Shown piece after piece: positions 17,819 through 47,520 of a stretch of 64,000 nucleotides of DNA. The DNA lies in assembly GCA_012522585.1 (NCBI GenBank), contig JAAYKD010000049.1, forward strand, positions 2,808 to 66,807, read 5' to 3'. Origin of the DNA: Bacillota bacterium. GTDB lineage: Bacteria > Bacillota > JAAYKD01. The notes below the pieces were generated by a model that did not search any database, was not told where the DNA came from, and saw nothing but the letters and a program-made list of their open reading frames with translations. Each line of letters begins with the position of its first letter. Within the stretch, counting starts at the first letter, position 1. A program made the position numbers and the translations under genes.

Positions 17819-18994
17819 TTAATCTGGCAAGCCCATTATCTTTTTGATATCTTTTTCTAGGATTCGGTACATGGCCCAATTCTCCAGACCATATGTGGCG
17901 AGTAAACTCTCTAAGTTTTTAAAAGAGGTTTTTGGTTTTGTTGTTTTTCCTTGCTGAACAGCCTTGATCAACAGGTTTTTAGGCGTATGCTCTAAAGATA
18001 TAAATTCCATAATATCGGTTTTATAACCAAATACTTCTAAAAGCTCCCCTCTCAAAGCATCGGTAATCAAGGCGGCCAGGCGTTCTTTGAGTATGCCGTG
18101 GCGGAGAAAAGCCTTTTGTTCCTCAGATTTAATCTTGTCCATAAGCTCGTGCTGACAGCAAGGCGCTGCCAAAATCACCCGGGCATCCCATTCAATTGCT
18201 TTGGCTAAGGCTGCATCAGTGGCAGTATCGCAAGCATGTAGGGAAATTACCAAATCAATTTTGCCCTGACTCTGCCAGTCGGCAATATCCCCCAGGGCAA
18301 ATTTTAAATTATGATAATTCAATTTTTCAGCCGTTTTCTGACAAAAACTGACCACATCTTCTTTCAAATCCAAGCCTAGAACATCCGGTTCATAGCCTTG
18401 TTCTGTCAGGTATTTATAGAGGGCAAAGGTCAAATAGGCCTTGCCGCTGCCAAAATCGATGATCTTCAAAGATTTTTTAGGTAAATACTGCAAAACATCT
18501 GCCACAATCTCTAAATAGCGATTGATCTGACGAAACTTATCGTACTTGGCAGCATAGACCTTACCTGCTTTATTCATCACTTTAAGTTCAACTAAAAAGT
18601 CATGAGGTATGCCCTCAGCAAAGATGTAATTCTTTTTGCGGTTATGAGATTCTATTTTAGCCTCTTTGGGAGCAGTTTGAACCCGGATTTTAGTTCTCTT
18701 CTGCCCTAAGAGCAGTTGGTAATCAGTCTCCTCGATTCTGATCAGAGCTTGAACATACTGCTCTTTATGTTGCTCAAACCAAGCTTCTACTTCTTCTTTC
18801 TTTTTAAAGTTTTTGTGGAAAACTTGATTGCCAAAAAAGGCCTCTTCTTGCCAGAAAAAGAAGCCTTGGTTTTTTATTGTCAGAACCCGCCTTTTAAACT
18901 CATTGCCTTTTTTGGGCTGGCTGAAGATGATTTTTATCGGCTGATATTCCTCTAAAGCATTTGTGATCAACTCGGCAATTTTTTTCAAATCCAT
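17819..18994 (-). CDS. Class I SAM-dependent methyltransferase (Methyltransf_32-like)
   Basis: 'KIIDFGSGKAYLTFALY' glycine-rich SAM motif plus 'LHACDTATD…APCCQHEL'. The ATG at 18994 lies downstream of the GTG at 19003. Confidence 0.6.
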   Translation of the reverse strand: MDLKKIAELITNALEEYQPIKIIFSQPKKGNEFKRRVLTIKNQGFFFWQEEAFFGNQVFHKNFKKKEEVEAWFEQHKEQYVQALIRIEETDYQLLLGQKRTKIRVQTAPKEAKIESHNRKKNYIFAEGIPHDFLVELKVMNKAGKVYAAKYDKFRQINRYLEIVADVLQYLPKKSLKIIDFGSGKAYLTFALYKYLTEQGYEPDVLGLDLKEDVVSFCQKTAEKLNYHNLKFALGDIADWQSQGKIDLVISLHACDTATDAALAKAIEWDARVILAAPCCQHELMDKIKSEEQKAFLRHGILKERLAALITDALRGELLEVFGYKTDIMEFISLEHTPKNLLIKAVQQGKTTKPKTSFKNLESLLATYGLENWAMYRILEKDIKKIMGLPD

Positions 18995-19009
18995 TTTCTT
19001 CACTTCTTT

Positions 19010-19639
19010 TCAAAGCCCAATTTTCGGACAGACATCCTCCAAACAACAGCCCTCACACATGGGGTTTCGGGCTTTACAGCGATATCTGCCGTGGTGAATA
19101 AACCAATGATGAGCGGCTGCCCATTTTTTTTCCGGGATAAATGAACAGAGTTGGCTTTCCGTTTGACCGGGATTTTTAGCTGCAGCTAAACCGGTACGAT
19201 TGGCAACTCGAAAGACATGGGTATCGACTGCCAGAGCCGGCAAATCGAAGGCAACAGATAAAACCACATTGGCTGTTTTACGGCCGACTCCGGGGAGTTT
19301 TTCTAATTCCTCCCTGGTTTGAGGCACCTGACCCTCAAAATCTTGTAAAAGCATTTGGGCCATGGCTTTCAAATTCTTAGCTTTATTCCGATACAAGCCG
19401 ACACCCTTGATCAGATCCTCTATCTTAGATCTTTCCAATTGACTTAAAGTCTCTGGATCCGGAGCCTCAAGAAACAATTTTTTAGTCACCTGGTTGACCT
19501 GGATGTCCGTAGTTTGAGCGGATAGTATTACGGCTACCAGAAGTTGAAAATCATTGACAAAATCCAATTCAGGGCCGGCGTCTGCATAGTGTTTTTCCAA
19601 GCGTCTTAATATTTCCAATTTGCGCTCTAAATCAGTCAA
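19010..19639 (-). CDS. nth: Endonuclease III
   Basis: HhH-GPD motif 'LPGVGRKTANVVL' and a C-terminal 4Fe-4S cluster CX6CX2CX5C. TTG start with a GAGGAGG RBS. Confidence 0.9.
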   Translation of the reverse strand: MTDLERKLEILRRLEKHYADAGPELDFVNDFQLLVAVILSAQTTDIQVNQVTKKLFLEAPDPETLSQLERSKIEDLIKGVGLYRNKAKNLKAMAQMLLQDFEGQVPQTREELEKLPGVGRKTANVVLSVAFDLPALAVDTHVFRVANRTGLAAAKNPGQTESQLCSFIPEKKWAAAHHWFIHHGRYRCKARNPMCEGCCLEDVCPKIGL

Positions 19640-19670: not shown

Positions 19671-21119
19671 TCATTTATACTTCAAATAGATTTGCAAAGC
19701 AATCAGGATAAAAAAGGCTAGGGATATTAAGATTGTGGTAAATCGATACAAGACTGCTTGCTTTCTGGGGTTTTCCTTGAAGGGCAGTATTTTAATCCCC
19801 TGATTGATCCTTTCTATTTCAACCTCTTCCAGATTTTCTGCATCTAGATCCCAATAATCTAAAAGGCGTTTCTGAGCGATCGCTCCGCTTCCTAAAACTA
19901 AATTCTTTTCCTGCTCAGATTCCAAAATCTCTGCTTCGTCTCTTTCTTCCGGAAATGGGTCTATGGTGGCAAAAGGCATCCTTTCCTCTTGCTCCAACTC
20001 CTGAGCTTTGATTCTCTCCAACAAAAGTCTTTCCCGCTCCTGCTCCTGCAAAAACAGCATGCCCTCGACGGAAGTTCTGGGGACTCTTCGAGTCAAGCTT
20101 TCTTGAGTGACCGGATGAATATAGGGAACTTCAAGATAGAGCTCCGGATTTTGCTGCCAATCCCTAGGCTCAGAAGATGCTACTTCAGCCTCGGGTTCTT
20201 TGGAAGTTTGACCAATTTGAAGGGGATGATCTTCCTGGTCTTCTGACTGCCCCTCCGGGTAGATATAAATACTTGTCGGGTCGTATTCTTCAATTTCTTG
20301 AAAACCCGATGCTTCTATCACTGAAAAATCAGCTGTCTCCTTATTTAAACCAGACGGATTATCCTGATCGAAAAAATCAGCTGCACCGGTAATGTCATCT
20401 TCGACAGCCAAAACCTGTTGATTCAAGGCCTTGGCTAAATCGATTGAATTTTCCAGACCAACTCGATTTTGAATTTCTTCTGCCAAATCTTCTGTCTGAA
20501 CAATCTCCTCGAGCAAGGCTTCATCAGATTCAGCTGTTTGATCTCTATCGATTGAATTTCCGAGACCGACCTGAGCTTGAATTTCCTCTGCTAAATCCTC
20601 TGTCTGAACAATCTCTGCAGGCAAAGCAGCTTGAGCTTCAATTGTTGGAACAGGCTCGATTAGAGGATCCGGGTCAACAGATTCATGATCAAGAGATTCT
20701 AAATCGGCATTAATCAAAGCAGCTTTGAGCTGATCCGAATCTTCCACATGGAAATGGGATTTCAAATCATTCGTATCTTCCGAGTCAGAAAATTCTACTT
20801 TCCCCTTCGACAAACTTTTTTCTTCGGATGAGAAAGGATCCGGCATGATCAAACCGGCATATTCCAACTTTGCTTGCCAGGACTCTCTTCGCAAATCAGC
20901 TGATCTGGGGCGAAATCTTTTCTTTTTACTTTCGACTAAAGGTGTTCTTCTAGGTCTTTCAATCTTTTTCTGGCCGGCACTTCCCGATTGATATGAAGCT
21001 AAAATTCTCTTGCAAGTATCGCATTTTTGAACATGTTCTTGAAAACGAATTAGCTCAGCCGGAGTAAGCTGATCATTTAGATAGGCCGGAATTTTACTTC
21101 TGATCCAAGCACATTGCAT
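19671..21119 (-). CDS. Zinc-finger (HC2-type, anti-sigma-like N-terminus), highly acidic, C-terminally tail-anchored protein
   Basis: N-terminus 'HVQKCDTCKRIL'. About 350 aa are rich in D/E/Q with an internal 36-aa tandem repeat. A single TM helix lies at the extreme C-terminus (FTTILISLAFFILIALQIYL). Confidence 0.55.
   Translation of the reverse strand: MQCAWIRSKIPAYLNDQLTPAELIRFQEHVQKCDTCKRILASYQSGSAGQKKIERPRRTPLVESKKKRFRPRSADLRRESWQAKLEYAGLIMPDPFSSEEKSLSKGKVEFSDSEDTNDLKSHFHVEDSDQLKAALINADLESLDHESVDPDPLIEPVPTIEAQAALPAEIVQTEDLAEEIQAQVGLGNSIDRDQTAESDEALLEEIVQTEDLAEEIQNRVGLENSIDLAKALNQQVLAVEDDITGAADFFDQDNPSGLNKETADFSVIEASGFQEIEEYDPTSIYIYPEGQSEDQEDHPLQIGQTSKEPEAEVASSEPRDWQQNPELYLEVPYIHPVTQESLTRRVPRTSVEGMLFLQEQERERLLLERIKAQELEQEERMPFATIDPFPEERDEAEILESEQEKNLVLGSGAIAQKRLLDYWDLDAENLEEVEIERINQGIKILPFKENPRKQAVLYRFTTILISLAFFILIALQIYLKYK
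20439..20615. repeat. Two tandem copies of a 108-bp unit, 69 bp nearly identical (20439-20507 and 20547-20615), inside the acidic-protein gene
   Basis: atcgattgaatt…ctgtctgaacaatctc occurs twice. The unit encodes EIVQTEDLAEEIQ..VGL.NSID twice. Confidence 0.8.
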
Positions 21120-21133: not shown

Positions 21134-23503
21134 TTAATCGTCTAGACCTTGTGGTCGAATTCTAATAGTTTCATTATTAGCCAAGGACCTGCGCACAATA
21201 TTGCCCGGAACCACAGTGCGCAATTCTCTGTGAGCTTCCGGTTCTCCGTGAACAAAAAGAGCAACCCTGGGATTGAGCAATTCTAAAGCTTTCAAAACAT
21301 CACTGCGGGCAGCCATGCCCGGCCATTGATAATAGAGCAACTCTGCTTTTCTGGCCGGAATGACCCTCCAGTGATTCTCCAACTCGCTTCTCAAATCAAC
21401 AAAACCGTCGTTCATGGCAGGTAAGAAGATAGCTGAAGCAGGGTCAGCCAAGATTTCCTTTAAGTACTGAAAACCAGGAGCCGCTTCTTTGAGCATCGAG
21501 CTATTGACAATCAGACAAGCCGCTTGGTCGCCTAAGCGATAACGATTATTTTCTGTCAATTTAGAATAGGACCATTGCAAGCTATAGGCAGCATCTAGGC
21601 TGGGCTCTTTGGGAGAATCGGGGGGGCTGATTTCTTCAATGATCTTTAAATATTTTTCGATTCTGCCATCGATATAAAAGGGGACCTTGGAGATCAGGCC
21701 ATCGCTGACGCCTCGGCGCAACATTGCCAAAATAGAGCTTTCACGCCCTATTTCGTTGACCGGAAAGAGTGCGATTCCCCCTCGCAACAAGACTTCTTCA
21801 ATTTTCTCCAACATGACTTCTTCCATCTCAAATCGATTGAATTTCGAATACTGAGCCAAAGTCAGGTTGAGCAAGGCCACATCGTAATCCTTTTGAGGCC
21901 AAGCAGCGGCTTTGGCGATCCTCTCCTCGTGGAGAGCAAAATCCGCGCTAATGAAAATAGAGTTTTCAGAGCTGTCCAAAGAGAAACTAGCTGCCCCGGG
22001 TAAATATCCGGCGGGGTATAAGGTAACACTGAAATCGTCTCGAAAGGGGTAATGGGCTTCTTGCCAAGGAATACCTCTGTAGACTACATTCTTTATCTCT
22101 TCTTCTGTATAAATCGGACCGTCAGCCAATTCCCCCTGTTGGCTCATGGCCTTGAACAAATGGGGTAAGAGTTTGGCCGTTTCAATGGAAGTCCAAACCG
22201 GAACTCCCGGCCATAGCTTGCTCAAATAGGGCAAGGCTCCAATATGGCGATAATTTGCCCTGCTGAGTAAGATCAAATCGGGCCTGGGTGCTGAAGCATA
22301 ATCAGGAAAGCGCTCTACCCCTTGATCTAGTCTGAGGCCTGCATCGATCAAGATTCTCTTATTGTTTTCAACTATTTCTAAAATATAGGCAGCTGCATCA
22401 TTGTCGTTTCCTCCGGCTATAGCCTTGACTAAAACATGGCTGCTTCCGGCTGAATTTGAAGTTTTTCCAGTCTGAGGGTAGAGATAATGGTGCCAATCAG
22501 TGTAATCAGTTTGATCCACCATCAAAAGGGGCACATTGTTGACCATAGGTCTGCCGGGTATGGGGTCTTTAGGCTGTCGTCTTAGAGTCAGCCTAGGGTC
22601 TCGAGCAATTTTATCGCCGTCGATAGTCTTCTTTATCGGTTCGACTTTTTCAATCGGCTCTTCCGTTTTAACTTCCGCTTGGGCAATCTCGGCTGCTTCA
22701 TCCTGAGCCAATTTTTCCACCTGATTTTCCGGCTCTTCTTCTACTGCTTGAGGCTCGATAGAATCGAAAAGAGCAATTTGATTCTCCTGAGGATTTCTTC
22801 TGGCATGAAGCTCCTCTTCCAACCAAGGATACTTCGCTTTGGCCTCGGCAATCAATTTTTGCTGTCTTTTCATGGCTTCTTTAATACCGTTTTGTAAGGC
22901 TAAGGCTCTTATTTTGATCTCTTCTTCAGCATATTCGGCTAAAAGATCGAAGTTTTCCCAAAGCAATTGCAGATGCTCTGACTCGATTTCCAAGTTTTCA
23001 TAATCGTCAATTAGACCTGAATGCTTGGCTGAGCGAAGAATTTTATTTTCGTAACGCAAGCGCAAATACAGGACCAGAAGCTGATCGGAAAAAAGAGCAT
23101 CTTCATAGATAATGGATTTTATTTTTTCATTTTCTTCCAGGGGCTGATCATCCGCCTCTTGATCCTCTGTGTCTACAGCTTTCGGCACAGGCTCTTCTTG
23201 GGGAGCTGGGGATTTTATCACTTCGCCTTTTCCATTTTCCTTGGACCAACGGAAATTTTTTCCATCTTGAAAATTGTTTTGCAAAAGATTCTGCAAATAG
23301 AGATCAGCATTTTCATTTCTTTCAAAAATCTCCATGGCTTGTTGCAGAGTAACATCGGCTTTAGTCAAATTAACCTGTTCTTTAGGATCAATGATCTTTT
23401 TCTTCCCTTTGCTACTTTGGGCAGACCTGTTATTCTTTTGCGATCTGGCTTCGATTATCTCAGCAAATTTTTGATTCCTGGACCGTTTCTTGCTGTTTGC
23501 CAT
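21134..23503 (-). CDS. Large multidomain protein: K/R-rich N-terminus, acidic coiled-coil middle, and a C-terminal degenerate beta-CASP/MBL-fold domain (predicted pseudo-nuclease)
   Basis: The C-terminus has 'ILIDAG', 'FISADF' and the terminal 'ALFVHGEPEAH' of the MBL/beta-CASP fold, but HxHxDH is replaced by 'SRANYRH'. A GGGGTGGT RBS precedes the ATG at 23503. Confidence 0.5.
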   Translation of the reverse strand: MANSKKRSRNQKFAEIIEARSQKNNRSAQSSKGKKKIIDPKEQVNLTKADVTLQQAMEIFERNENADLYLQNLLQNNFQDGKNFRWSKENGKGEVIKSPAPQEEPVPKAVDTEDQEADDQPLEENEKIKSIIYEDALFSDQLLVLYLRLRYENKILRSAKHSGLIDDYENLEIESEHLQLLWENFDLLAEYAEEEIKIRALALQNGIKEAMKRQQKLIAEAKAKYPWLEEELHARRNPQENQIALFDSIEPQAVEEEPENQVEKLAQDEAAEIAQAEVKTEEPIEKVEPIKKTIDGDKIARDPRLTLRRQPKDPIPGRPMVNNVPLLMVDQTDYTDWHHYLYPQTGKTSNSAGSSHVLVKAIAGGNDNDAAAYILEIVENNKRILIDAGLRLDQGVERFPDYASAPRPDLILLSRANYRHIGALPYLSKLWPGVPVWTSIETAKLLPHLFKAMSQQGELADGPIYTEEEIKNVVYRGIPWQEAHYPFRDDFSVTLYPAGYLPGAASFSLDSSENSIFISADFALHEERIAKAAAWPQKDYDVALLNLTLAQYSKFNRFEMEEVMLEKIEEVLLRGGIALFPVNEIGRESSILAMLRRGVSDGLISKVPFYIDGRIEKYLKIIEEISPPDSPKEPSLDAAYSLQWSYSKLTENNRYRLGDQAACLIVNSSMLKEAAPGFQYLKEILADPASAIFLPAMNDGFVDLRSELENHWRVIPARKAELLYYQWPGMAARSDVLKALELLNPRVALFVHGEPEAHRELRTVVPGNIVRRSLANNETIRIRPQGLDD

Positions 23504-23516
23504 TTTACCACCCCAT

Positions 23517-24395
23517 TTAAATATCGGCTTTTTCATTTAGAATCAGTCGCAGTTCCTCCGGTGTAAATTCATAACGTTGTCGACAGAAATGGCAAATCAT
23601 CTCAGTCTCTTCTTCCTTGGCAATCATGTCTTCCAATTCGGATACTTCCAAGGTTCCTAAAAGATCCTTCAATCTTTCTCGATTGCAAGTGCATCTAAAT
23701 TCCACATCCCTTTTCTCTAGGATCTCAAATTCATCAGGATTGAAGATCTTTGAGAGAAGATACTCGGGTCTGTCGTTTTCTTTTAAAAGAGTCGTCACAT
23801 TGGGAAAATCGGTCAGCCTTCTTTCGATATCAGGAACAATCTCGTCAGGCGCCCCGGGTAAAAGCTGGATCAAATAGCCTCCTGCAACTTCAACCTGGCT
23901 ATCAGTTCCCACTAAAACACCCAAAGCTAAGACAGTTGGAGTCTGTTCTGAGACAGCATAATAATAAGCTAAATCGGTGGCGATTTCTCCGCTTTGAATA
24001 GGCACCTGACCTACATAAGGTTCGCCTAAGCCTAAATCCTTGCTGACAATTAAATTGCCTTGACCAACCGCTCCACCCACATTCAATTTGCCATCAAAGG
24101 TTGGAGGCAGATGAACTTGAGGTTCTTGAACATAGCCCCTGACTTGTTGTTCGGCGTTAGCGTCGACTATAACTGCACCAACAGGCCCATCCCCTAAAAA
24201 GCGAATGGTCAGTTTCTGTTCGTCCTGCAAAGAAGCGGACATCAACAATCCACCGATTAAAGCTCGACCTAAAACAGCAGTTGCTGTGGGCCAAGTTTCA
24301 TGACGCATTCGGGCTGTTTCAACGGTTCCCTTGGCGCTTATGGCAATTATTCGCAAATTATTGTCCAGAGCAGTTCCTATGATCATTTTATCCAT
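23517..24395 (-). CDS. hslO: Redox-regulated chaperone Hsp33
   Basis: 292 aa with C-terminal CxC…CxxC zinc centres (CTCNRE…CHFCRQ) and an Hsp33-like N-domain. Confidence 0.9.
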   Translation of the reverse strand: MDKMIIGTALDNNLRIIAISAKGTVETARMRHETWPTATAVLGRALIGGLLMSASLQDEQKLTIRFLGDGPVGAVIVDANAEQQVRGYVQEPQVHLPPTFDGKLNVGGAVGQGNLIVSKDLGLGEPYVGQVPIQSGEIATDLAYYYAVSEQTPTVLALGVLVGTDSQVEVAGGYLIQLLPGAPDEIVPDIERRLTDFPNVTTLLKENDRPEYLLSKIFNPDEFEILEKRDVEFRCTCNRERLKDLLGTLEVSELEDMIAKEEETEMICHFCRQRYEFTPEELRLILNEKADI

Positions 24396-24507
24396 ATTTT
24401 TGATTCCTTTCGATTAAAGAAAATTTTTTATTAATAATCTTACTTCCTCTTTTTACCCTAAAAAACCTTCAGAGCCACTCTCAATTATTGAAAATGACTC
24501 TGTTTTA

Positions 24508-27647: not shown

Positions 27648-28514
27648 TTAAAATTCTTCTCTTTGGCTGACTTGTATGATATTTTCCATTTCTAAATCTT
27701 CGATCTCTTCCATGGATTTTTCCAAAGCCATGAGTTCTTGGGTCAATTGACTCAATTCGAAACGCAGGCTTTCCTGACCCCAAGTCGTGGTATTGATCAG
27801 TCTGGCTCTTAAACTGGAAAGGGCACTCTCCAGGGTATCTAAATGAGCTTGCAAGAGAATACTGCTTTGACGGACTCTTTCCAGAGCTTTCAATTCCTGC
27901 TCCTTAAATTCAGCCGCTCGCCTGTATTGCAGCCCTGCTTCAAAACTGACAGCATGCTCAGCTTGGCGCAAAAGCCGGTCTGCTTCTTCTCTGATGGCTT
28001 GTAAATTTGAACTTTCCAAAAGAGAAGCGAGCCTTTGGTCTCGGTTTAAAAGCTCATAATAGCCTAGAAAACCGTTGATTGACTGAGTTAAAACTTCTTG
28101 GGTCAGAGGTTCATGCAAATCTTCGATGCGATTGAAATCAGCAAACATTTCCCTTTCCAGTTTGCGAATTCTATCGTAACGATTGCGCTGATAATTTGGC
28201 CTGGTTCGCTGCCTTTCGTATTTTCTCGAAGCTTCTCTTAAAGTTTTTTGTAAATCCGTTAGATTTTTTATGGTCCATTCTTTTTGGACCTTTTCCTTAA
28301 ATTCTTCTGAGAAAAGTGTTTTTAACCAAATCGAAATAAGGCCTATGCCTCCCGCTGCCAAAATAGCCAATCTCAGGGGCAAAAAAATCCAGGGGAGGCT
28401 AATGCCTCCACTGAAATTAATTACACCAATGATGGTTGCGATGACAATTAGAAAGGTCGCAGGCCTTAAAATCAAGGATTTTAAGTAATACGAAACCGGC
28501 GGCGATTTAATCAC
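27648..28514 (-). CDS. Membrane-anchored coiled-coil protein, partner of PspA (product unknown)
   Basis: Two N-terminal TM helices followed by about 200 aa of coiled coil. Its GTG start overlaps the pspA stop by 8 nt. Confidence 0.5.
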   Translation of the reverse strand: MIKSPPVSYYLKSLILRPATFLIVIATIIGVINFSGGISLPWIFLPLRLAILAAGGIGLISIWLKTLFSEEFKEKVQKEWTIKNLTDLQKTLREASRKYERQRTRPNYQRNRYDRIRKLEREMFADFNRIEDLHEPLTQEVLTQSINGFLGYYELLNRDQRLASLLESSNLQAIREEADRLLRQAEHAVSFEAGLQYRRAAEFKEQELKALERVRQSSILLQAHLDTLESALSSLRARLINTTTWGQESLRFELSQLTQELMALEKSMEEIEDLEMENIIQVSQREEF

Positions 28515-29289
28515 TGGGCCCCATCTCCTGCTTAATTTTCTCTAAGCGTTCTTTTACTTGTTCTTCTTCCAGAGTTCCGGCTTTTTCCAAGACTTCGGTC
28601 TCACTGATTTCAGCTAAGCCCATCTGAGCTTTTAATTGGGTTAGGCGCTCTTGAGCCTGCAGGCTCTTCAGATCATCCTGTAAGTTTGTAAATTCTGCAT
28701 TTAAATTGATGCTACCCATTTCTGTCAGAGCTTCTGCCCTAGCTTGCTTTTCTTGTATCTTTTCTCTGGCTCTCTCCCATGAATCTTCTGTTGTTTCAAA
28801 GGAAATACCACTCAAGGCTTCGTTCAACTTTTCTGTAATCTGAGCTTGCTTCCATTGAGTTTGTAATTGCAATTTTTCTCTGTATTTTGCCTGAACCTGA
28901 GCCTCAAAAGCTTTGACCTGCTTTTTGACCAGTTCACTGGCTTCTGTAGCTTTTTCAAATTGAGCTTGCAAAGAAGCAACAGTATCTTCCGATGCGATCA
29001 TCTGTTGCATGACTTGTTCAGCTAAATCATCTCGGCCCATTTGCAGAGCTTGCTTGACTTGAGCTTCCATTGTTTTGTATTTTTGTTCCTCGTCCCGCAA
29101 CATCAATTCAACCTGATTCTTTTGTTGAATCACCTGGATTGCCTGTTTGCGCACTTGGCCTTGTTTAGCCCGCAATTCATTTTGGGCTGCTTCCAAAATT
29201 GCATTGGGATCTTCAATAGCACTGATCCCCATACCGAACCACCCTTTTATGGTAATCCATAAACGGTTTAATAAACCCATATTCTTCAC
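28507..29289 (-). CDS. pspA: PspA/IM30 (phage shock protein A / LiaH-like) family protein
   Basis: N-terminal amphipathic helix followed by coiled coil in the PspA/IM30 arrangement. There is an AAGGAG RBS. Confidence 0.8.
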   Translation of the reverse strand: MKNMGLLNRLWITIKGWFGMGISAIEDPNAILEAAQNELRAKQGQVRKQAIQVIQQKNQVELMLRDEEQKYKTMEAQVKQALQMGRDDLAEQVMQQMIASEDTVASLQAQFEKATEASELVKKQVKAFEAQVQAKYREKLQLQTQWKQAQITEKLNEALSGISFETTEDSWERAREKIQEKQARAEALTEMGSINLNAEFTNLQDDLKSLQAQERLTQLKAQMGLAEISETEVLEKAGTLEEEQVKERLEKIKQEMGPSD

Positions 29290-37448: not shown

Positions 37449-38114
37449 TTAAGATTGGAGAGGCGGACCAAAATCCTTCAAATCATGGCTGACCTGGAAT
37501 TCCGCTTCCGTCTTTTCTCTGATTTCGTCAACTGTAACTCCCTTGCGTTTTTCAATTAAGAGCAATCCGCCTTTAGTGATATCGAAAACGGCAAGTTCGG
37601 TCACAATTTTATGAACCTTTTTGTAAGCGGTTAAAGGCAACTTACAAGTTTTCAGGATTTTTTTAGCGTCCCCTCGAGCCGTATGAGTCGTTACAACGAT
37701 GACCTTTTTAGCTCCGGCGACTAAATCCATAGCGCCTCCCATGCCGGGCACCATTTTTCCCGGAATGATATGGCTGGCCAAGGAACCTTCTTGGTCTATT
37801 TCCAGAGCACCTAAAATAGTCAGATCAAGATGCCCGCCTCTGATGATGGCAAAAGACAAGGCGCTGTCGAAGAAGCTGGCATAGTCTTTAACTGTGACCA
37901 TGGCTGCTCCGGCATTGACGATGTCCGGATTTTGCTCTTCCGGGGAGGCCATTTTATCCATGCCCATAATACCGTTTTCCGATTGAAAGACTGCATGCAC
38001 ATCTTCGGGAATAAAATTGGCGACCATGGTGGGGATGCCGATTCCTAGATTGACTACATCACCATCTTTAATTTCTAAGGCTGCCCTTCTGGCAATGACT
38101 TCTCTCGCGTCCAT
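37449..38114 (-). CDS. ctfB: 3-oxoacid (butyrate-acetoacetate) CoA-transferase subunit B
   Basis: 221 aa, CoA-transferase family I beta subunit. Adjacent to subunit A. Confidence 0.85.
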   Translation of the reverse strand: MDAREVIARRAALEIKDGDVVNLGIGIPTMVANFIPEDVHAVFQSENGIMGMDKMASPEEQNPDIVNAGAAMVTVKDYASFFDSALSFAIIRGGHLDLTILGALEIDQEGSLASHIIPGKMVPGMGGAMDLVAGAKKVIVVTTHTARGDAKKILKTCKLPLTAYKKVHKIVTELAVFDITKGGLLLIEKRKGVTVDEIREKTEAEFQVSHDLKDFGPPLQS

Positions 38115-38116
38115 AA

Positions 38117-38770
38117 TCAGTCTCCTTTCACGATATAATCGACAAAGATACCGGGTGTCGCTACATCTTCCGCTTTGATTTCTCCAATATTGACGTAACT
38201 ATCAGCAGTAGCTAAAACTAAATCTGCAGCCATAGCCATTAGAGGATTGAAATTTCTGGTCGTTCCGTGATAGTAAAGATTGCCAAAGGGATCGATTTTA
38301 CTGCCGTGGATCAGAGCAATATCGGCTCTTAAGGGAGTTTCTAAAAGATAATTTTGGCCATCCACCTCAATTACTCTTTTCCCTTCAGCCACGTGAGTGT
38401 TCATGCCGGTAGCTGTTAAGACACCACCTAGACCGGAACCGCCGCAACGAATTTGCTCGGCTAAGGTGCCTTGAGGCACTAACTCCACTTCCAATTCACC
38501 GGCCCCCATCTGACGACCGGTTTCCGGATTGGTACCGATATGGGAAACTATGACTTTTTTAGCTTTTTGATCAGCGATCAAGCGGGAAATACCTATTTCC
38601 GGCAAGGCTGTGTCGTTGGCTATGATGGTGTAATCTTTTACACCCGAAGCGAGAATTGCATCGATTAAAAGTTCCGGTGTACCATTACCTAAAAAGCCAC
38701 CAATCATGATGGTCATGCCATCACAGAAATGTCTTTGCGCCTCTTCAAGAGAAATTATCTTGTTTATCAT
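38117..38770 (-). CDS. ctfA: 3-oxoacid (butyrate-acetoacetate) CoA-transferase subunit A
   Basis: 217 aa with N-terminus 'MINKIISLEEA…GMTIMIGGF'. Confidence 0.85.
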   Translation of the reverse strand: MINKIISLEEAQRHFCDGMTIMIGGFLGNGTPELLIDAILASGVKDYTIIANDTALPEIGISRLIADQKAKKVIVSHIGTNPETGRQMGAGELEVELVPQGTLAEQIRCGGSGLGGVLTATGMNTHVAEGKRVIEVDGQNYLLETPLRADIALIHGSKIDPFGNLYYHGTTRNFNPLMAMAADLVLATADSYVNIGEIKAEDVATPGIFVDYIVKGD

Positions 38771-38788
38771 TTCATCTCCCCCTCATGA

Positions 38789-39631
38789 TCAGCTATATTG
38801 ATAAAAGCCCTCGTTGGATTTTCGACCCAGTTTTCCAGCCCGCACCATTTTCTTCAAGAGCAGATGAGGACGATATTTAGGATCGAGAGTTTCATCGTGC
38901 AGCACATTTAAAATATCTAAAACTATATCCAGACCGATAAAATCTGCCAGAGCTAAGGGTCCCATAGGATGATTAGCTCCCAATTTCATGGCTGTATCTA
39001 TGTCCTCGGGAGTGGCAACTCCTTCGGCTAAGACTGCCACCGCTTCGTTGATCATGGGAATCAGCAAACGATTGACCACAAAGCCGGGTGCTTCTTCAAC
39101 CTGCACCGATGTTTTCCCCAGAGCTTCAACTATCTTTTGACATTGAGCCAGGGTTTCATCGGAGGTACGCTCCCCTTTGATCAGTTCGACTAATTTCATC
39201 ACCGGTGCCGGGTTGAAAAAGTGCATCCCGATAAAAGCAGTGGGGTCAGGTGAGTGAGCAGCCAATTCGGTTATGGATAGACTGGATGTGTTGCTGGCCC
39301 AGATAGGTTGACCCAAGTTCAGTTCTTTTAATTCTTGGAAGAGCTTTTTCTTGATCTCCGCTCTTTCCGCTACAGCCTCGATGACCAAATCAACTTGACC
39401 CGGCAGCTCCCTTAAATCTTCTAAGAGGTTGAGGTTGTTCAAAATAAGATCTTTATCAGCAACAGTCATCCGCTCTCTGGATACTTGACGTTCTAAGATT
39501 TTCTCAATAGCCACTTTAGCCTTGATTGTAACTTCATTGTTGACATCGTAAAGATAAGTTGGGCCGATACCTGCAAAGCATTGGGCTATACCACTGCCCA
39601 TGGTGCCGGCTCCGATGACCAAAACACGCAT
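38789..39631 (-). CDS. hbd: 3-hydroxybutyryl-CoA dehydrogenase
   Basis: 'MRVLVIGAGTMGSGIA' Rossmann N-terminus. GGAGGGG sits 6 nt before the ATG at 39631; the longer ORF-track entry would overlap crt. Confidence 0.9.
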   Translation of the reverse strand: MRVLVIGAGTMGSGIAQCFAGIGPTYLYDVNNEVTIKAKVAIEKILERQVSRERMTVADKDLILNNLNLLEDLRELPGQVDLVIEAVAERAEIKKKLFQELKELNLGQPIWASNTSSLSITELAAHSPDPTAFIGMHFFNPAPVMKLVELIKGERTSDETLAQCQKIVEALGKTSVQVEEAPGFVVNRLLIPMINEAVAVLAEGVATPEDIDTAMKLGANHPMGPLALADFIGLDIVLDILNVLHDETLDPKYRPHLLLKKMVRAGKLGRKSNEGFYQYS

Positions 39632-39647
39632 ATTAGCCCCTCCTCGT

Positions 39648-40421
39648 TTATTTTGCATTCTGTTTGTCCAAAAAGGATTGCATTCTTTCCTTCTGGTCAG
39701 GATGAGCAAAGCAAGCTTTAAAATGTTCGGCTTCCTGCAAGAAATCAGCAGCCGATGCGTCGGCATGAGCATAGGCAAAGATATTGGTCAGTTTATCAAT
39801 GGCGACTTGGCTGTTGTTGAGGATGCGTTTCAAAGTATCGTCTAACATTTCTTCCAATTCCTCAGGCTGAGCTAAGAGCTCAACTAAACCAATGCGATAA
39901 GCCTCTTCGCCACCGACTGTTTTTCCTGTGTACATCATATATTTAGCTCTGCCTTCACCGATTAAACGGCCTAAACGAAAGACTCCGCCAAAACCTGGGA
40001 TGATGCCTAAGCCTGTTTCCGGTAAAGCAAAACGGGCATTAGGAGTAGCAATCCGAATATCACAGGCTATAGCCAATTCCATACCGCCCCCTAGAGCATA
40101 ACCGTGGACCACAGCTATGGTCGGGATAGGCAGTTGCTCCAATTGAGCAAAGACTCGATTGCCAAACATGGAAAAATCAAAAGCTTGTTCAGGGGTATAA
40201 TCGACCATTTCAGAAATATCCGCTCCGGCAACAAAAGCTCTGTTGCCTGAACCTCTGATCACTAGGCAGCGATAGTCGGGATGCTCTCCCACTTCTCTGA
40301 TCGCTGTGCTGAGTTCTGAAAGCACTTCGGTGTTCAAAGCATTTAAAGCTTGGGGACGAGTAATCGTCAAGGTTATAACATTGTTTTCTACTGAGGTTTT
40401 AATATACTTCATTTTAAACAC
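39648..40421 (-). CDS. crt: Short-chain enoyl-CoA hydratase (crotonase)
   Basis: 257 aa, crotonase fold (…[15 protein letters not shown]…). Confidence 0.85.
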
Positions 40422-41607
40422 ACCTTTCGTCTCTTTTAACGATCAGAGCTTCACCCATGCCACCGCCGATACAGAGGGTGGCCAAGCCGATTTTAGCATC
40501 TCTTTTTTCCATTTCGTGTAAGAGTGTGACTAAAATTCTAGTGCCGGAGGCTCCGATAGGATGACCTAGAGCAATAGCTCCTCCGTTAACATTGACTATT
40601 TCAGGATTAAATCCCAATTCTTTGTTGACTGCCAAGGATTGGGCTGCAAAAGCTTCGTTGGCTTCAATTAAATCTATATCTTCCAAATTCAATTTTGCTT
40701 TAGCCAAAGCTTGTTTGACCGAAGGAACAGGACCTATTCCCATGATGGAAGGATCGACGCCAACGGAACCGGAGGCTAGGATAACCGCCATGGGCTGCAA
40801 ATTGTTTTCGACCAAAAAGGATTCGCTACAGACGATCACTGCCGCTGCTCCATCATTGATACCGGAAGCATTACCGGCGGTGACGCTGCCGTCTCTTTTA
40901 AAGGCAGGACGTAATCTGGCCAAACCTTCGATGGTGCTACCGGCTCTGGGATGTTCATCCTGATTGAAAATAGTGACATTTTTTCTCCTGTCGACCAGGG
41001 ATACATCGACAATTTCAGCATCGAAACGCCCACTGTTTTGAGCTGCTTCTGTTTTTAACTGAGAATTTAAGGCAAATTCATCTTGCTCTTCTCTGCTCAA
41101 ATTATATTGCTCAACTAAATTTTCTGCTGTGATGCCCATATGATATTGATTGAAGACGTCGGTCAAGCCGTCATAGACCATCAAATCCACGGCTTCTCGA
41201 TTGCCCATTCTGGCACCGTAGCGCAAATCTTTGAGAACATAAGGAGCTTGGTTCATGTTTTCCATGCCCCCAGCAACCACACACTCAGCTTCTCCTGCTA
41301 AAATACTGCGACGAGCATATTCAACTGCATTGAGGCCGGAACCACAGACTTTGTTTAAAGTCATAGCCGGACGCTCGATGGGAATACCGGCAGCAATAGC
41401 CGCTTGTCTGGCTGGGTTTTGCCCATTAGCTGCCTGCAAAACCTGACCCATGACTATTTCATCCACTTTTTCCGGGGCTACACCGGCTCTGTTTAAGGCT
41501 TCTTTGATGACAATAGCACCTAAATCCTTGGCTGCTGTATCCTTGAGGCTACCGCCCAAGGCTCCAATAGCTGTCCTGCATGCTCCCAAAAGATAGACTT
41601 TTTCCAT
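40414..41607 (-). CDS. thl: Acetyl-CoA C-acetyltransferase (thiolase II)
   Basis: 397 aa with thiolase N- and C-terminal signatures (…NKVCGSGL…, …CIGGGMGEA…). Confidence 0.9.
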
Positions 41608-41636
41608 TTTCTTTTCCCCTTCCTCATATTTAAATC

Positions 41637-42386
41637 TTAAAAATTGCTCTCTTTTCTCCTGATCAATTCTTTGACCATAAAGGTTGCCACATCGTCGGCA
41701 TATTTACCGCTGCCAAACCCGGCATCGTAACCCAACTCTTTAGCCAACTCATGGGTAATGCGAGCTCCTCCACAAATGAAGACCATTTTATCTCGCAAAC
41801 CTTCAGCTTCGGCCATTTCGATTAATTCGGTTAAATTATGTATATGTATATCCTTTTGAGTGACCGTTTGAGAAACCAAAATAACATCGGCATTTTCTTG
41901 AACCGCTTTTTGCAAGAGAGTTTCGTTTAAAACCTGACTGCCTAAATTATGAGTGATCAACATGTCGTAGCGTTCCAAACCAAAACGGCCATTGAAGCCC
42001 TTGCGATTCATGATAGCATCGATGCCTACAGTGTGAGCATCTGTGCCTGTCGAAGCTCCGATGACGGTGAGCTTTCGGCCCAATTCTCTTTTGATCAGCT
42101 CGTCGGTTTCTTCAATGGTCAAAGCTTTTTGCTCGTTTTCCAGCACGACAATTGTATCTAAGTCGATGGCAGCTTTGAAAGAACCATAAGCAACATAGAA
42201 TGTAAAGCCTGGGCTCAGACTCTGTTCTTGAGCTATGACAATATCCTCTAAACCCAGCTTCTCCATGATTTGACTGGCAGCAGCTTGAGCTTTCGCTCCT
42301 GCATCCAGAGGCAGAGTAAAACTGATTTGAATTTTACCGTCATTGAGAGTATCTCCATAGGGTTTGATAAAATTTTTATCCTGCAT
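41637..42386 (-). CDS. kamE: Lysine 5,6-aminomutase beta subunit (B12-binding)
   Basis: 249 aa with the B12-binding DxHxxG motif 'TDAHTVG'. Adjacent to kamD. Confidence 0.85.
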
Positions 42387-42405
42387 TTTTCACACCTCTT
42401 TTTCC

Positions 42406-45209: not shown

Positions 45210-45221
45210 TCCTTTCGATAG

Positions 45222-46256: not shown

Positions 46257-46277
46257 AAGAATCTTCCTTTCAAGGAT

Positions 46278-47105
46278 TTATTTAGGATTTAAGCCTAAAA
46301 TCTCTCGAGCTTGTTGGGGAGTGGCGATTTCTCGGCCTAATTCCTTGGCTATCCGCACCACTTTTTCCACCAATTCACCGTTGCTTTGAGCTTTTAAGCC
46401 TCGGGCTAAATAGACATTGTCTTCAAAGCCTACTCGAACATGGCCACCTAAGATCATCGCCATGGTGGCAATGGGAAAAGCCGCTCGGCCTATGCCGGTA
46501 GCTGTATAAGTGGAATCGGCAGGTAAGCTCTCAACCATGAAAAGAAGATCGCGGGGCTCAGCACTGATGCCGCCATTGACCCCTAAAACTAAATTGAAAT
46601 GCATGGGACCGGGGATCTGGCCTCTGGCATTCAGCCTTTTGGCTAAATCAATCATGCCCTTGTCAAAAACCTCTACTTCCGGCTTGACATTGCGCTCCAT
46701 CATCTGACGGGCAAACTCAATAATCATATTCTCAGTATTGACGAAAATTTCATCTCCGCCGAAATTTAGGGTCCCACAATCTAAAGTAGCCATCTCAGGA
46801 TTTAAGCGCAAAGGCTGCAGACGCTCTTCAGCACTCATGCCGGTGGCTCCACCAGTGGAAGGTTGAACGATCAACTCAGGAGGACAAAGCCGGTAAATTT
46901 CTTCCATACAAGCTTTAAATCGATCATAGCTCTGAGTCGGGGTGCCATCGTCTTCTCTGACATGGAGATGAATGATGGAAGCTCCTGCCCGATAAGCGCT
47001 TAAAGCCTCTCGGCCAATTTCTTCAACGGTATAAGGGACAGCCGGGTTATGTTCTTTGGTCACTTCCGCCCCACAAATGGACGCTGTGATGATTAAAGGT
47101 TCCAT
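46278..47105 (-). CDS. kce: 3-keto-5-aminohexanoate cleavage enzyme (BKACE/DUF849)
   Basis: 275 aa with N-terminus 'PLIITASICGAEVTKEHNPAVPYTVEEI'. Confidence 0.85.
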   Translation of the reverse strand: MEPLIITASICGAEVTKEHNPAVPYTVEEIGREALSAYRAGASIIHLHVREDDGTPTQSYDRFKACMEEIYRLCPPELIVQPSTGGATGMSAEERLQPLRLNPEMATLDCGTLNFGGDEIFVNTENMIIEFARQMMERNVKPEVEVFDKGMIDLAKRLNARGQIPGPMHFNLVLGVNGGISAEPRDLLFMVESLPADSTYTATGIGRAAFPIATMAMILGGHVRVGFEDNVYLARGLKAQSNGELVEKVVRIAKELGREIATPQQAREILGLNPK

Positions 47106-47121
47106 TCTTTCACCTCAATTA

Positions 47122-47505: not shown

Positions 47506-47520
47506 GAAAATTTCCCCTTT

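What the first reader, a model, noticed from the sequence alone, without database searches (positions are those of the whole stretch)
21134..23503. 800-aa protein with a basic N-terminus, coiled coil and a catalytically degenerate beta-CASP/MBL domain, co-operonic with hslO
The C-terminal 430 aa follow the MBL/beta-CASP order: motif 1 D (ILIDAG), motif 4 D (FISADF), and the terminal H of 'ALFVHGEPEAH'. The metal-binding HxHxDH reads SRANYRH, and the motif-3 His is replaced (AGYLPGAASF). This predicts a non-catalytic RNA/DNA-binding scaffold. The N-terminus (KKRSRNQK…KGKKK) is strongly basic, and the middle is acidic with heptad repeats. It sits 13 nt downstream of the Hsp33 gene and upstream of an acidic zinc-finger, tail-anchored protein. 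This suggests a stress-linked nucleic-acid-binding complex of unknown function.
Basis: partly seen in the sequence, partly recalled or inferred. Interest (0 to 1): 0.55.

Follow-up and report, generated by a model that had tools for sequence, protein, structure and literature searches.

The report
Dead beta-CASP nuclease beside Hsp33
This gene encodes a protein that keeps the full fold of a CPSF-73/aCPSF1-type RNA-cutting enzyme but has lost the metal-binding residues needed to cut, carries a previously unseen N-terminal half, and is found only in one small group of uncultured anaerobic Bacillota, always between the Hsp33 chaperone gene and a membrane-anchored zinc-finger protein.

Summary
Window 21134..23503(-) encodes a 789-aa protein; the 800-aa reading starts at an upstream in-frame ATG. 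Residues 355-789 are a CPSF-73/IntS11/aCPSF1-type MBL + beta-CASP module (PDB profile E 1e-31; Foldseek E 1e-30, TM up to 0.82).

The catalytic motifs are degenerate:
- HxHxDH reads RANYRH.
- Motif 3: H to Y.
- Motif A: E to N.
- Motif B: H to M.
- Motif 1 D, motif 4 D and motif C H remain.

All 12 known relatives lack a complete HxHxDH, with graded decay. The deepest clade still has HxH plus the motif 3 and motif B His. The dead domain is nevertheless under strong purifying selection: dN 0.027 against 0.046 for hslO in the closest pair.

The N-terminal 354 aa have no relative among 1.84 billion representative proteins outside this family. They comprise a basic tail, acidic linkers, a helical hairpin and an invariant PGRPMxNNVPLLMVD..YTDWH.YLY motif.

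The order hslO-X-zfHC2(tail-anchored)-nth-methyltransferase is conserved. The zinc-finger partner is equally lineage-restricted.

Best reading: a non-catalytic beta-CASP binding or scaffold protein coupled to the membrane-tethered ZAS-like partner. Nucleic-acid binding and a stress link are inferred, not shown. It is a new variant of a known kind (CPSF100, IntS9, RNase J2). Interest is moderate.

The parts
23517..24395 (-). hslO (Hsp33 redox-regulated chaperone), first gene of the putative operon. Cys clusters CTC (235-237) and CHFC (268-271) are present.
   Evidence: Pfam HSP33 4.4e-95 and NCBIfam HslO 6e-95, above cut-off. Cys motifs read directly.
24385..24502 (-). Intergenic leader upstream of hslO. 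Terminator-like hairpin plus T-run (24502..24470) ends the upstream transglutaminase-like gene. A sigma-70-like promoter match lies at 24413..24385.
   Evidence: Consensus scans only. A comparable hairpin plus leader is seen in the related loci. No CIRCE, CtsR or PerR box was found.
23504..23516 (-). 13-nt hslO-X spacer with Shine-Dalgarno GGGGTGG.
   Evidence: Sequence read directly.
21134..23503 (-). Gene X: 789-aa pseudo-beta-CASP protein (stop codon 21134-21136).
   Evidence: the translation equals P0001.
23366..23503 (-). X residues 1-46: basic N-terminal tail (net +9, pI 10.8). A basic start plus the conserved F13/I16 is shared by all homologues.
   Evidence: first 30 aa net +4 to +6 in all 12 members.
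23216..23365 (-). X residues 47-96: small conserved region (ADITLQQAME.F......LYLQ.LL). No known family. Low-confidence model.
22763..23104 (-). X residues 134-247: predicted long-helix hairpin (DALFSDQ.LVLYLRLR.EN.ILR ... EHLQLL ...), flanked by acidic disordered linkers (residues 97-133 and 248-300).
   Evidence: AF2 helices 123-191, 194-224 and 227-247, block pLDDT about 72-85 over residues 161-230. Conservation. Weak heptad signal.
22475..22600 (-). X residues 302-343: the most conserved stretch of the family, D.RL(T/S)LR...D..PGRPM.NNVPLLMVD..(D/E/Q)YTDWH.YLY. It lies outside the MBL core and is not confidently folded in either model.
   Evidence: Invariant columns. pLDDT 32-54. No Pfam or PDB match.
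21137..22441 (-). X residues 355-789: MBL + beta-CASP module of the CPSF-73/IntS11/aCPSF1 type.
22244..22264 (-). Motif 2 position: SRANYRH instead of tHxHxDH. Three of the four metal ligands are lost.
   Evidence: alignment with canonical relatives (THAHADH)..
21992..22012 (-). Motif 3 position: AGYLPGA (H to Y).
21854..21871 (-). beta-CASP motif A position: LNLTLA (E to N).
21308..21325 (-). beta-CASP motif B position: WPGMAA (H to M).
21149..21253 (-). Motif C VHGEP (His kept) and the invariant C-terminal strand R.S....ETIR(I/V)RPQ. This strand aligns with the aCPSF1 C-terminal DTIRLR dimer-interface motif.
   Evidence: PMC3553952. A tail-only profile finds nothing in the PDB.
19671..21119 (-). 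Putative partner: 482-aa ZAS-like (zf-HC2, HVQKCDTC) protein with net charge -48. Conserved islands: the basic KKKRFRP..AGLI.P and WQ..P..Y.E.PY.HPVT (residues 321-338). C-terminal TM helix at residues 455-479 (tail anchor). It contains a 108-bp tandem duplication.
19010..19639 (-). nth (endonuclease III, HhH-GPD plus 4Fe-4S), fourth gene.
17819..19003 (-). SAM methyltransferase (Methyltransf_32), fifth gene, 6 nt after nth.

Best explanation
Gene X encodes a pseudo-nuclease. It has a complete CPSF-73/aCPSF1-type MBL + beta-CASP fold whose binuclear zinc site has been dismantled, so it cannot carry out the canonical two-metal phosphodiester hydrolysis.

Shown in silico:
- The fold.
- Loss of 4 of the 7 metal ligands, plus the motif A acid and the motif B His.
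- Strong purifying selection on the dead domain.
- Restriction of the family to one lineage.
- Invariable pairing with the downstream gene.

Inferred: the conserved shell is kept as a binding module.
- X most likely works as a non-catalytic adaptor that dimerises through the MBL/beta-CASP body and its invariant C-terminal strand.
- It would use the former substrate cleft and the basic N-terminal tail to hold single-stranded nucleic acid, most plausibly RNA, as for its active relatives.
- It would be tied to the cytoplasmic face of the membrane through the translationally coupled, co-distributed, tail-anchored ZAS-like zinc-finger protein. The likely contacts are the two families' invariant aromatic/proline-rich linear motifs (X 313-343; partner 321-338).

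More speculative: the pair is transcribed behind hslO. Both Hsp33 and ZAS domains are zinc-thiolate redox switches, so the module may be deployed or released under thiol/oxidative stress.
For: Fold:
- phmmer against the PDB gives aCPSF1 at 1e-16, and IntS11 and CPSF-73 at 1e-15 to 1e-13.
- The family profile gives IntS11 at 1e-31.
- hhalign to a canonical Bacillaceae beta-CASP gives probability 99.9.
- The AF2 model has pTM 0.81. Foldseek gives E 1e-30 and TM 0.72-0.82.

Dead site: motif 2 reads RANYRH, motif 3 Y, motif A N and motif B M. No metal-ligand set beyond the motif 4 D and motif C H is conserved across the 12 members. Motif 2 reads RANYRH, RAGYRQ, RAHYNH, RAHYQH and HAHYSQ, the pattern expected once the constraint on metal binding has gone.

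Still functional:
- 12 full-length clusters of 789-825 aa.
- 66% mean column identity.
- In the closest pair, dN is 0.027 for the MBL part, against hslO 0.046, nth 0.062 and the partner 0.163.

Coupling to the partner:
- 13-28 nt spacing in all seven related loci examined.
- The partner family is found only in the same lineage: 4 clusters among 5.8e9 proteins.
- X's N-terminal profile finds 3 representatives among 1.84e9 proteins, all this family.
- The partner has conserved cytoplasmic motifs and a C-terminal TM helix.

Precedent: inactive beta-CASP subunits that serve as scaffolds, namely CPSF100, IntS9 and RNase J2, and active:inactive pairs in bacteria (PMC8501993). The C-terminal strand of aCPSF1 is its dimer interface and is needed for RNA binding (PMC3553952). 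X's tail aligns with it at 7 of 16 identical positions.
Against: - No experiment or co-fold supports X-partner contact, dimerisation or nucleic-acid binding.
- The whole 20-kb neighbourhood is syntenic in this narrow lineage. Adjacency may therefore be inherited rather than selected.
- The closest outgroup hslO loci have neither gene, so there is no independent re-association.
- The tail-only profile has no PDB hit at E <= 10. The same terminal strand pattern also exists in the non-aCPSF1 Bacillaceae relatives (consensus), so the dimer-motif argument is weak.
- The deepest clade keeps a potentially intact zinc site 1 (HxH, motif 3 H, motif 4 D) and the motif B His. Inactivity may therefore not hold for the whole family.
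- No stress operator was found upstream of hslO.
- Very strong constraint on the MBL domain is also what an enzyme would show.
Confidence: 0.5

Rival explanations
1. X is the inactive half of an active:inactive beta-CASP heterodimer, like CPSF100 with CPSF73, IntS9 with IntS11, or RNase J2 with J1. It would regulate or target an active beta-CASP nuclease (RNase J or a COG1236 enzyme) encoded elsewhere in the genome. The zinc-finger neighbour would be incidental or only a localiser.
For: Such pairs are documented, in bacteria too (PMC8501993). X keeps the body and the C-terminal strand used for dimerisation in aCPSF1. The dead domain is the most constrained part of the protein, as expected for an interface-rich subunit.
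Against: No paralogue lies in the 64-kb window. X is closer to active enzymes (IntS11 at 1e-31) than to CPSF100 (3.5e-7), so the loss is independent. CPSF100/IntS9-type pairing uses extra C-terminal domains that X lacks. The nearest active relatives found are in Bacillaceae, not in this lineage. The rest of these genomes could not be scanned here.
Confidence: 0.2
2. X is still an enzyme. It would use a remodelled, mono-metal or metal-independent site, built from D387, D521, H525, E527, H752 and the GGND.DAA loop, on a different substrate.
For: The MBL domain has a very low dN (0.027; omega about 0.02). Invariant polar residues lie next to the old site: motif 1 D, motif 4 D with DF..H.E, and motif C H. 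Clade P0010-12 retains all the site-1 ligands and the motif B His. MBL-fold enzymes with altered metal sites are known.
Against: The positions equivalent to the metal ligands vary freely among members (R/H; N/G/H; R/N/Q/S; H/Q; Y/N/Q/H). This is not how a functional site evolves. Motif A is lost in all members. In characterised beta-CASP nucleases, single substitutions of these His or Asp residues are used as inactivating mutants (H261A and H594A in PMC3553952; the TTHA0252 and RNase J mutants listed).
Confidence: 0.13
3. X belongs to a sigma/anti-sigma-type signalling module. The ZAS domain of the downstream protein would sequester X, or a sigma factor encoded elsewhere with X as modulator, and release it on thiol oxidation. 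X would act on transcription, for example on RNA polymerase, by analogy with aCPSF1/FttA.
For: The partner has a zf-HC2 domain with HxxxCxxC and a weak RsrA-model hit. X occupies the position, immediately upstream of the anti-sigma-like gene, where the sigma gene normally sits. The closest structural relatives, FttA and IntS11, act on transcribing polymerases. Hsp33 is co-encoded.
Against: X's N-terminal half has no sigma-70 region 2 or region 4 signal, or any other Pfam signal, even at E <= 10. No structural match exists for the N-terminus. Nothing links X to RNA polymerase. Orphan zf-HC2 proteins are common.
Confidence: 0.12
4. X is a decaying relic (pseudogene-like ORF) or an assembly or annotation artefact.
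For: Catalytic motifs are destroyed. Pfam scores are barely above threshold. The sequence is known only from metagenome assemblies.
Against: There is an uninterrupted 789-825-aa ORF in 12 clusters from independent samples. Purifying selection is strong. A good SD and tight spacing are present. Long invariant stretches are conserved.
Confidence: 0.02

Closest known systems
Active CPSF-73 / IntS11 / archaeal aCPSF1 (FttA) / TTHA0252-type beta-CASP ribonucleases (COG1236)
   Same: Same two-domain MBL + beta-CASP fold over about 435 aa. E-values are 1e-31 to 1e-12 by profile and TM is 0.7-0.8. Motif 1 D, motif 4 D, motif C His and the terminal strand are retained.
   Different: Motifs 2, 3, A and B are destroyed. 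There are no KH domains and no CPSF/Integrator C-terminal domains. Instead there is a unique 354-aa N-terminal half. The NCBIfam aCPSF1 score is 80.6 against a cut-off of 580.
Catalytically inactive beta-CASP subunits: CPSF100, IntS9, and RNase J2-type paralogues in Bacillota
   Same: The beta-CASP fold is retained with degenerate metal ligands. They are presumed to act by binding or scaffolding rather than catalysis (PMC8501993).
   Different: X is not orthologous to them. CPSF100 matches at only 3.5e-7, and RNase J matches only by structure. The loss is independent. No active partner has been identified. The N-terminal architecture and genomic context (hslO and a ZAS-like protein) are different.
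Bacillaceae ~907-aa 'MBL fold metallo-hydrolase' beta-CASP proteins (P0013-P0027)
   Same: These are the closest sequence relatives outside the family: 26% identity over the whole beta-CASP module and hhalign probability 99.9.
   Different: They have fully canonical motifs (THAHADH, AGH, MESTYG, SAHAD, VHGD). Their beta-CASP module is N-terminal, followed by an unrelated ~470-aa C-terminal half. They have a different, uninformative context.
ZAS-family anti-sigma factors (RsrA, RsiW, ChrR type), for the neighbouring gene
   Same: An N-terminal zf-HC2 domain with HxxxCxxC (Pfam 5e-8) and a weak RsrA-model hit.
   Different: No sigma gene lies upstream or within about 10 kb. There is no extracytoplasmic domain: the TM helix is at the extreme C-terminus. 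A roughly 400-aa acidic linker with lineage-specific motifs separates the two.

Membership tests
MBL-superfamily beta-CASP nucleases (CPSF-73/aCPSF1/IntS11/TTHA0252 type) | alpha-beta/beta-alpha MBL fold with an inserted beta-CASP domain | tested here: met
   PDB sequence hits at 1e-16 to 1e-31. AF2 pTM 0.81. Foldseek E 1e-30 with TMt up to 0.82 over about 450 columns.
MBL-superfamily beta-CASP nucleases (CPSF-73/aCPSF1/IntS11/TTHA0252 type) | MBL motifs 1-4: D; HxHxDH; H; D (zinc ligands) | tested here: not met
   Motif 1 D and motif 4 D are present. Motif 2 reads RxNxRH and motif 3 reads Y (also the alignments).
MBL-superfamily beta-CASP nucleases (CPSF-73/aCPSF1/IntS11/TTHA0252 type) | beta-CASP motifs A (D/E), B (H), C (H) | tested here: not met
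   A is N and B is M. Only the motif C His is kept.
MBL-superfamily beta-CASP nucleases (CPSF-73/aCPSF1/IntS11/TTHA0252 type) | Pfam Beta-Casp (PF10996) and RMMBL (PF07521) above gathering score | tested here: not met
   The window protein has no Beta-Casp hit, and RMMBL scores 14.9 against a cut-off of 21.6. Homologue P0011 scores 19 against 27.7.
MBL-superfamily beta-CASP nucleases (CPSF-73/aCPSF1/IntS11/TTHA0252 type) | Metal-dependent endo- or 5'-3' exonuclease activity | not testable with these tools
   Needs biochemistry. The sequence predicts loss of activity.
aCPSF1 / FttA (TIGR03675) | Two N-terminal KH domains | tested here: not met
   No Pfam hit of any kind in residues 1-355, even at E <= 10. 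No PDB hit for the N-terminal profile.
aCPSF1 / FttA (TIGR03675) | Equivalog score at or above the curated cut-off | tested here: not met
   80.6 bits against a cut-off of 580.2.
aCPSF1 / FttA (TIGR03675) | Conserved C-terminal dimer-interface motif | tested here: inconclusive
   NIVRRSLANNETIRIR against PH1404 GISTRAPNNLDTIRLR is 7 of 16 identical, at the end of the full-domain alignment. The motif's role is described in PMC3553952. A tail-only profile finds nothing in the PDB at E <= 10.
Inactive beta-CASP scaffold subunits (CPSF100 / IntS9 / RNase J2 type) | Degenerate metal-binding motifs on a conserved fold under selection | tested here: met
Inactive beta-CASP scaffold subunits (CPSF100 / IntS9 / RNase J2 type) | Heterodimer with an active paralogue in the same genome | not testable with these tools
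   There is no paralogue in the window. It needs a whole-genome scan of OY762825.2 and co-purification.
Inactive beta-CASP scaffold subunits (CPSF100 / IntS9 / RNase J2 type) | Orthology to CPSF100, IntS9 or RNase J2 | tested here: not met
   CPSF100 matches at 3.5e-7, against IntS11 at 1e-31. RNase J and J2 appear only as lower-ranked structural matches.
ZAS anti-sigma factors (neighbouring gene 19671-21119) | zf-HC2 domain with HxxxCxxC | tested here: met
   Pfam PF13490 at 5e-8, above its cut-off. HVQKCDTC lies at residues 29-36 and is invariant in the homologues.
ZAS anti-sigma factors (neighbouring gene 19671-21119) | Co-transcribed cognate ECF sigma gene | tested here: not met
   No sigma-70 r2/r4 gene lies in the +/-10 kb annotated neighbourhoods, nor among the small window ORFs scanned. 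Not every ORF of the window was scanned.

The most novel reading that the evidence does not exclude
X and its tail-anchored ZAS-like neighbour form a previously unknown, sigma-less redox-gated module. A zinc-thiolate switch at the membrane would hold a dead CPSF/FttA-type beta-CASP dimer. On thiol oxidation, in parallel with Hsp33 activation, it would release the dimer to clamp nascent or damaged RNA, or RNA polymerase, without cleaving it. That would be a bacterial pseudo-nuclease counterpart of the archaeal and eukaryotic termination and processing scaffolds.
Probability: 0.08. Interest if true: 0.7.

Novelty: new variant of a known kind. Interest (0 to 1): 0.4.

Why it matters
Pseudo-enzymes derived from beta-CASP nucleases are central scaffolds in eukaryotic RNA 3'-end processing (CPSF100, IntS9). 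They are known in bacteria mainly as RNase J2.

This family is an independent bacterial case on the CPSF-73/aCPSF1 branch. It shows a visible stepwise decay series of the zinc site across three clades, a wholly novel N-terminal half, and a co-restricted membrane-tethered zinc-finger partner.

If the pairing is real, it would add a way of using a dead nuclease fold as a binding module. It would also give an example of a ZAS domain working without a sigma factor.

The impact is limited because the family is confined to a handful of uncultured anaerobic-digester Bacillota, and nothing about its ligand is known.

Tried and rejected
- N-terminal half: Pfam at E <= 10, a PDB profile search and an exhaustive HMM search of 1.84e9 representatives found no relatives outside the family. 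No domain assignment is possible.
- Defence-system reading: PADLOC finds nothing for X, the partner or the transglutaminase-like gene. The NCBIfam Cas14 hit (51.7 bits against a cut-off of 800) is generic beta-CASP similarity. Rejected.
- Origin by synteny: the nearest Hsp33 outgroups at <= 52% identity have unrelated genes next to hslO. No active 'ancestor' sits at the locus.
- Context of the closest active relatives in Bacillaceae: uninformative. One look-up found no record.
- Paralogue in the window: none.
- Sigma factor nearby: none found.
- Stress operators (CIRCE, CtsR, PerR) upstream of hslO in six loci: none.
- C-terminal dimer motif as an independent signal: the tail-only profile gave no PDB hit.
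- Full-length AF2 with the 12-sequence alignment: poor, with mean pLDDT 54. It was used only for the helical hairpin.
- dN/dS beyond the closest pair: dS is saturated, so only dN comparisons are usable.
- Literature: no paper links beta-CASP with Hsp33 in an operon, and no paper describing this family was found.


Full report
**1. Observation**

The window carries a long minus-strand ORF, 21134..23536, which is 800 aa from the first ATG.
- This is the real start. It is the one used by the identical database protein P0001 and it matches the N-termini of all homologues (MSKRRK/MTKRRK).
- It is preceded by GGGGTGG four bases upstream and lies exactly 13 nt after the TAA of the Hsp33 gene.
- The next gene starts 14 nt after the stop of X.
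- An independent ENA contig from an anaerobic-digester metagenome carries the identical gene and neighbours. A 62%-identical homologue from another sample shows an equally degenerate motif. Sequencing or frameshift errors are therefore excluded.

**2. Fold**

- Pfam assigns residues ~383-562 to Lactamase_B, Lactamase_B_2 and Lactamase_B_6, only just above their cut-offs, and gives a sub-threshold RMMBL hit at 741-773.
- Against PDB sequences, the single protein reaches 1e-16 (aCPSF1 PH1404), with IntS11, CPSF-73, FttA, TTHA0252 and, more weakly, CPSF100 below it.
- A profile of the 12 family members reaches 1e-31 for IntS11 and 3e-27 for M. mazei aCPSF1, with the alignment running to the last residue of that chain.
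- The full-length AF2 model was poor, with mean pLDDT 54.
- A model of residues 295-789 built on 28 sequences is good: mean pLDDT 77.6, pTM 0.81, and most of the domain in the 80-95 range.
- Foldseek places that model at E 1e-30 on IntS11 and aCPSF1, with TMt 0.82 on the CPSF-73 catalytic segment. RNase J and J2 rank lower.
The C-terminal 435 aa are a CPSF-type MBL + beta-CASP module.

**3. Catalytic motifs**

I aligned the 12 family members with 16 canonical relatives.

| Motif | Canonical relatives | Window protein | Status |
|---|---|---|---|
| Motif 1 | LIDAG | ILIDAG | D kept |
| Motif 2 | tHaHaDH | sRaNyRH | three of four ligands lost |
| Motif 3 | AGH | AGY | H lost |
| Motif 4 | GD | AD | D kept |
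| Motif A | mESTyG | LNLTLA | acid lost |
| Motif B | SAHAD | PGMAA | His lost |
| Motif C | VHG | VHG | H kept |

The same correspondences appear in the HMMER alignment to PH1404 and in hhalign.

No member has a complete HxHxDH, and the decay is graded:

| Clade | Motif 2 | Motif 3 | Motif B |
|---|---|---|---|
| Deepest clade, P0010-12 | HAHYSQ | H | H |
| P0003-08 | RAHYNH | Q | F |
| P0009 | RAHYQH | Q | F |
| P0002 | RAGYRQ | N | Y |
| Window protein | RANYRH | Y | M |

- Motif A is N or S in all members.
- The former ligand positions thus drift freely, while D387, D521 and H752 stay invariant.
The loss is ancestral for the motif 2 'DH' and for motif A, and progressive for the rest.
- It also introduces a caveat. 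The deepest clade could still hold one metal in site 1.

**4. Selection**

The dead domain is not decaying.
- Across the family the mean column identity is 66%, with long invariant runs.
- In the closest pair with DNA available (L006/L008), dN values are:

| Region | dN |
|---|---|
| X, MBL part | 0.027 |
| hslO | 0.046 |
| nth | 0.062 |
| X, N-terminal half | 0.108 |
| Zinc-finger partner | 0.163 |

- dS is about 1.2-1.5, which is near saturation. The omega of about 0.02 is therefore approximate, and only the dN ranking is firm.

**5. The N-terminal half (residues 1-354)**

Layout:
- A basic tail, net +9 over 46 aa with pI 10.8. The first 30 aa are net +4 to +6 in all members.
- A small conserved region at residues 47-96.
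- An acidic linker.
- Predicted long helices at 123-191, 194-224 and 227-247, with block pLDDT about 72-85 over residues 161-230.
- A second acidic linker.
- The most conserved stretch of the whole family, D.RL(T/S)LR...D..PGRPM.NNVPLLMVD..(D/E/Q)YTDWH.YLY at residues 302-343. It is not confidently folded onto the domain in either model (pLDDT 32-54).

Other findings:
- Heptad periodicity is weak: lag-7 autocorrelation is 0.15, and the periodicity peak is at 3.6. 'Coiled coil' should be read as 'helical hairpin, possibly coiled'.
- This half has no Pfam hit even at E <= 10 and no PDB hit.
- An exhaustive profile search of 1.84 billion representative proteins returns only three hits, all from this family.

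**6. Distribution and context**

- The k-mer-seeded search of 5.8 billion proteins finds 12 full-length clusters at 36-62% identity. The next hits are canonical ~907-aa Bacillaceae beta-CASP proteins at 26% identity over the C-terminal half only.
- Only four of 185,579 GTDB species representatives carry the gene. All are uncultured Bacillota or 'Eubacteriales' MAGs.
- In every locus the order is hslO - X - zf-HC2 protein - nth - Methyltransf_32 - pckA, with 13-28 nt between X and the zinc-finger gene.
- A terminator-like hairpin and a promoter-like site separate hslO from the upstream transglutaminase-like gene in the window. Similar hairpins and leaders occur in the relatives. The transcription unit is thus probably hslO through the methyltransferase gene.
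- The entire >20-kb neighbourhood is collinear in these genomes. The closest Hsp33 outgroups at <= 52% identity have neither X nor the partner. Conserved adjacency is therefore suggestive but not independent evidence of coupling.

**7. The partner**

The downstream 482-aa protein has these features:
- An N-terminal zf-HC2/ZAS domain (Pfam 5e-8; HVQKCDTC; weak RsrA-model hit).
- A basic patch.
- An acidic linker of roughly 225 residues. The protein's overall net charge is -48. The linker contains a 108-bp tandem duplication.
- An invariant island, WQ..P..Y.E.PY.HPVT...R.S.EG..FL.
- LPF.EN..KQA..YRF followed by a TM helix at the extreme C-terminus.

It is as lineage-restricted as X, with four clusters in total. 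No sigma gene lies within about 10 kb, nor among the small window ORFs I scanned. It is a tail-anchored protein that is cytoplasmic apart from the anchor. It is ZAS-like but has no obvious sigma factor.

**8. Interpretation**

Shown in silico:
- A CPSF-type beta-CASP fold.
- A dismantled two-metal site.
- Strong constraint.
- A novel N-terminal half.
- Strict co-occurrence and tight spacing with a tail-anchored ZAS-like protein behind hslO.

Inferred:
- X is a non-catalytic binding or adaptor protein.
- It probably dimerises through the beta-CASP body. Its invariant C-terminal ETIR(I/V)RPQ strand aligns with the DTIRLR strand that forms the aCPSF1 dimer interface and is needed for RNA binding. 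This resemblance is not significant on its own.
- It may bind single-stranded nucleic acid via the old cleft and the basic tail.
- It may be tethered to the membrane by the partner through the two conserved linear motifs.

More speculative:
- A thiol/oxidative-stress connection. Hsp33 and ZAS domains are both zinc-thiolate redox switches (established knowledge of those families), and Nth repairs oxidised pyrimidines.
- No stress operator was found upstream of hslO.

Rivals:
- X is the inactive partner of an unidentified active beta-CASP, as in RNase J1/J2, CPSF73/100 and IntS11/9 (PMC8501993).
- X has residual or remodelled catalysis.
- X has a role in sigma-type signalling.
- X is a relic. 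This is rejected.

**9. Comparison and novelty**

- X works most like the inactive beta-CASP scaffold subunits. It is not their orthologue: CPSF100 matches at 3.5e-7 against 1e-31 for IntS11.
- It cannot be filed as a beta-CASP nuclease in the functional sense, because the defining motifs 2, 3, A and B were tested and not met.
- It is not aCPSF1: there are no KH domains, and it scores 80.6 bits against a cut-off of 580.
- No paper in the searchable library links beta-CASP with Hsp33 in an operon, and none was found that describes this family.
- I class it as a new variant of a known kind. It is a genuine and clean finding, but narrow in distribution and without a testable ligand as yet.
- Interest: 0.40.

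Noticed in passing
window 47560-47734 (-) and genes 37449-47523 (-): A lysine riboswitch (RF00168, 64.8 bits) sits directly upstream of a lysine-fermentation operon rather than biosynthesis or transport genes. The operon encodes a 4HBT thioesterase, BKACE (Kce), a 344-aa protein with no Pfam hit, lysine 2,3-aminomutase, beta-lysine 5,6-aminomutase alpha and beta, thiolase, 3-hydroxyacyl-CoA dehydrogenase and CoA-transferase A/B. A catabolic operon would call for lysine-ON logic.
   Followed up: partly
window 20439-20661 (inside the zf-HC2 partner gene): A 108-bp tandem duplication (2.1 copies, 75% matches) encodes a repeated 36-aa acidic unit (..IVQTEDLAEEIQ..VGL.NSID..). It is absent from the homologues' shorter linkers.
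   Followed up: partly
window 27648-29289 (-): A PspA/IM30 gene (28507-29289) overlaps by 8 nt the start of the next gene, a 288-aa helical protein with predicted N-terminal TM segments and no Pfam hit (27648-28514). The pair is conserved upstream of the hslO cluster in the related loci L002 and L003.
   Followed up: no
window 17819-19003 (-): The Methyltransf_32 methyltransferase at the end of the cluster gives a weak PADLOC hit to mad2 (6e-11, residues 158-283). This is probably generic SAM-MTase similarity.
   Followed up: no
P0013-P0027 (Bacillaceae); L015 6001-8724; P0028: The closest active relatives of X are ~907-aa Bacillaceae proteins. They have a canonical N-terminal beta-CASP module and a ~470-aa C-terminal half with no Pfam annotation. 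P0028 fuses a beta-CASP module to a Cas_APE2256 (CARF-like) domain.
   Followed up: partly
window 56816-57825 (-) and 45222-46256 (-), 49224-50291 (-): Four sizeable ORFs (142, 194, 344 and 355 aa) have no Pfam family at the thresholds used.
   Followed up: no
L003 12417-13978 vs L005 12417-13979: In the complete-chromosome copy of the P0011 locus, the zinc-finger partner is called as two ORFs (187 + 339 aa). Two Logan assemblies of the same locus give one 520-aa ORF. This is a probable frameshift or assembly difference in the acidic linker.
   Followed up: no
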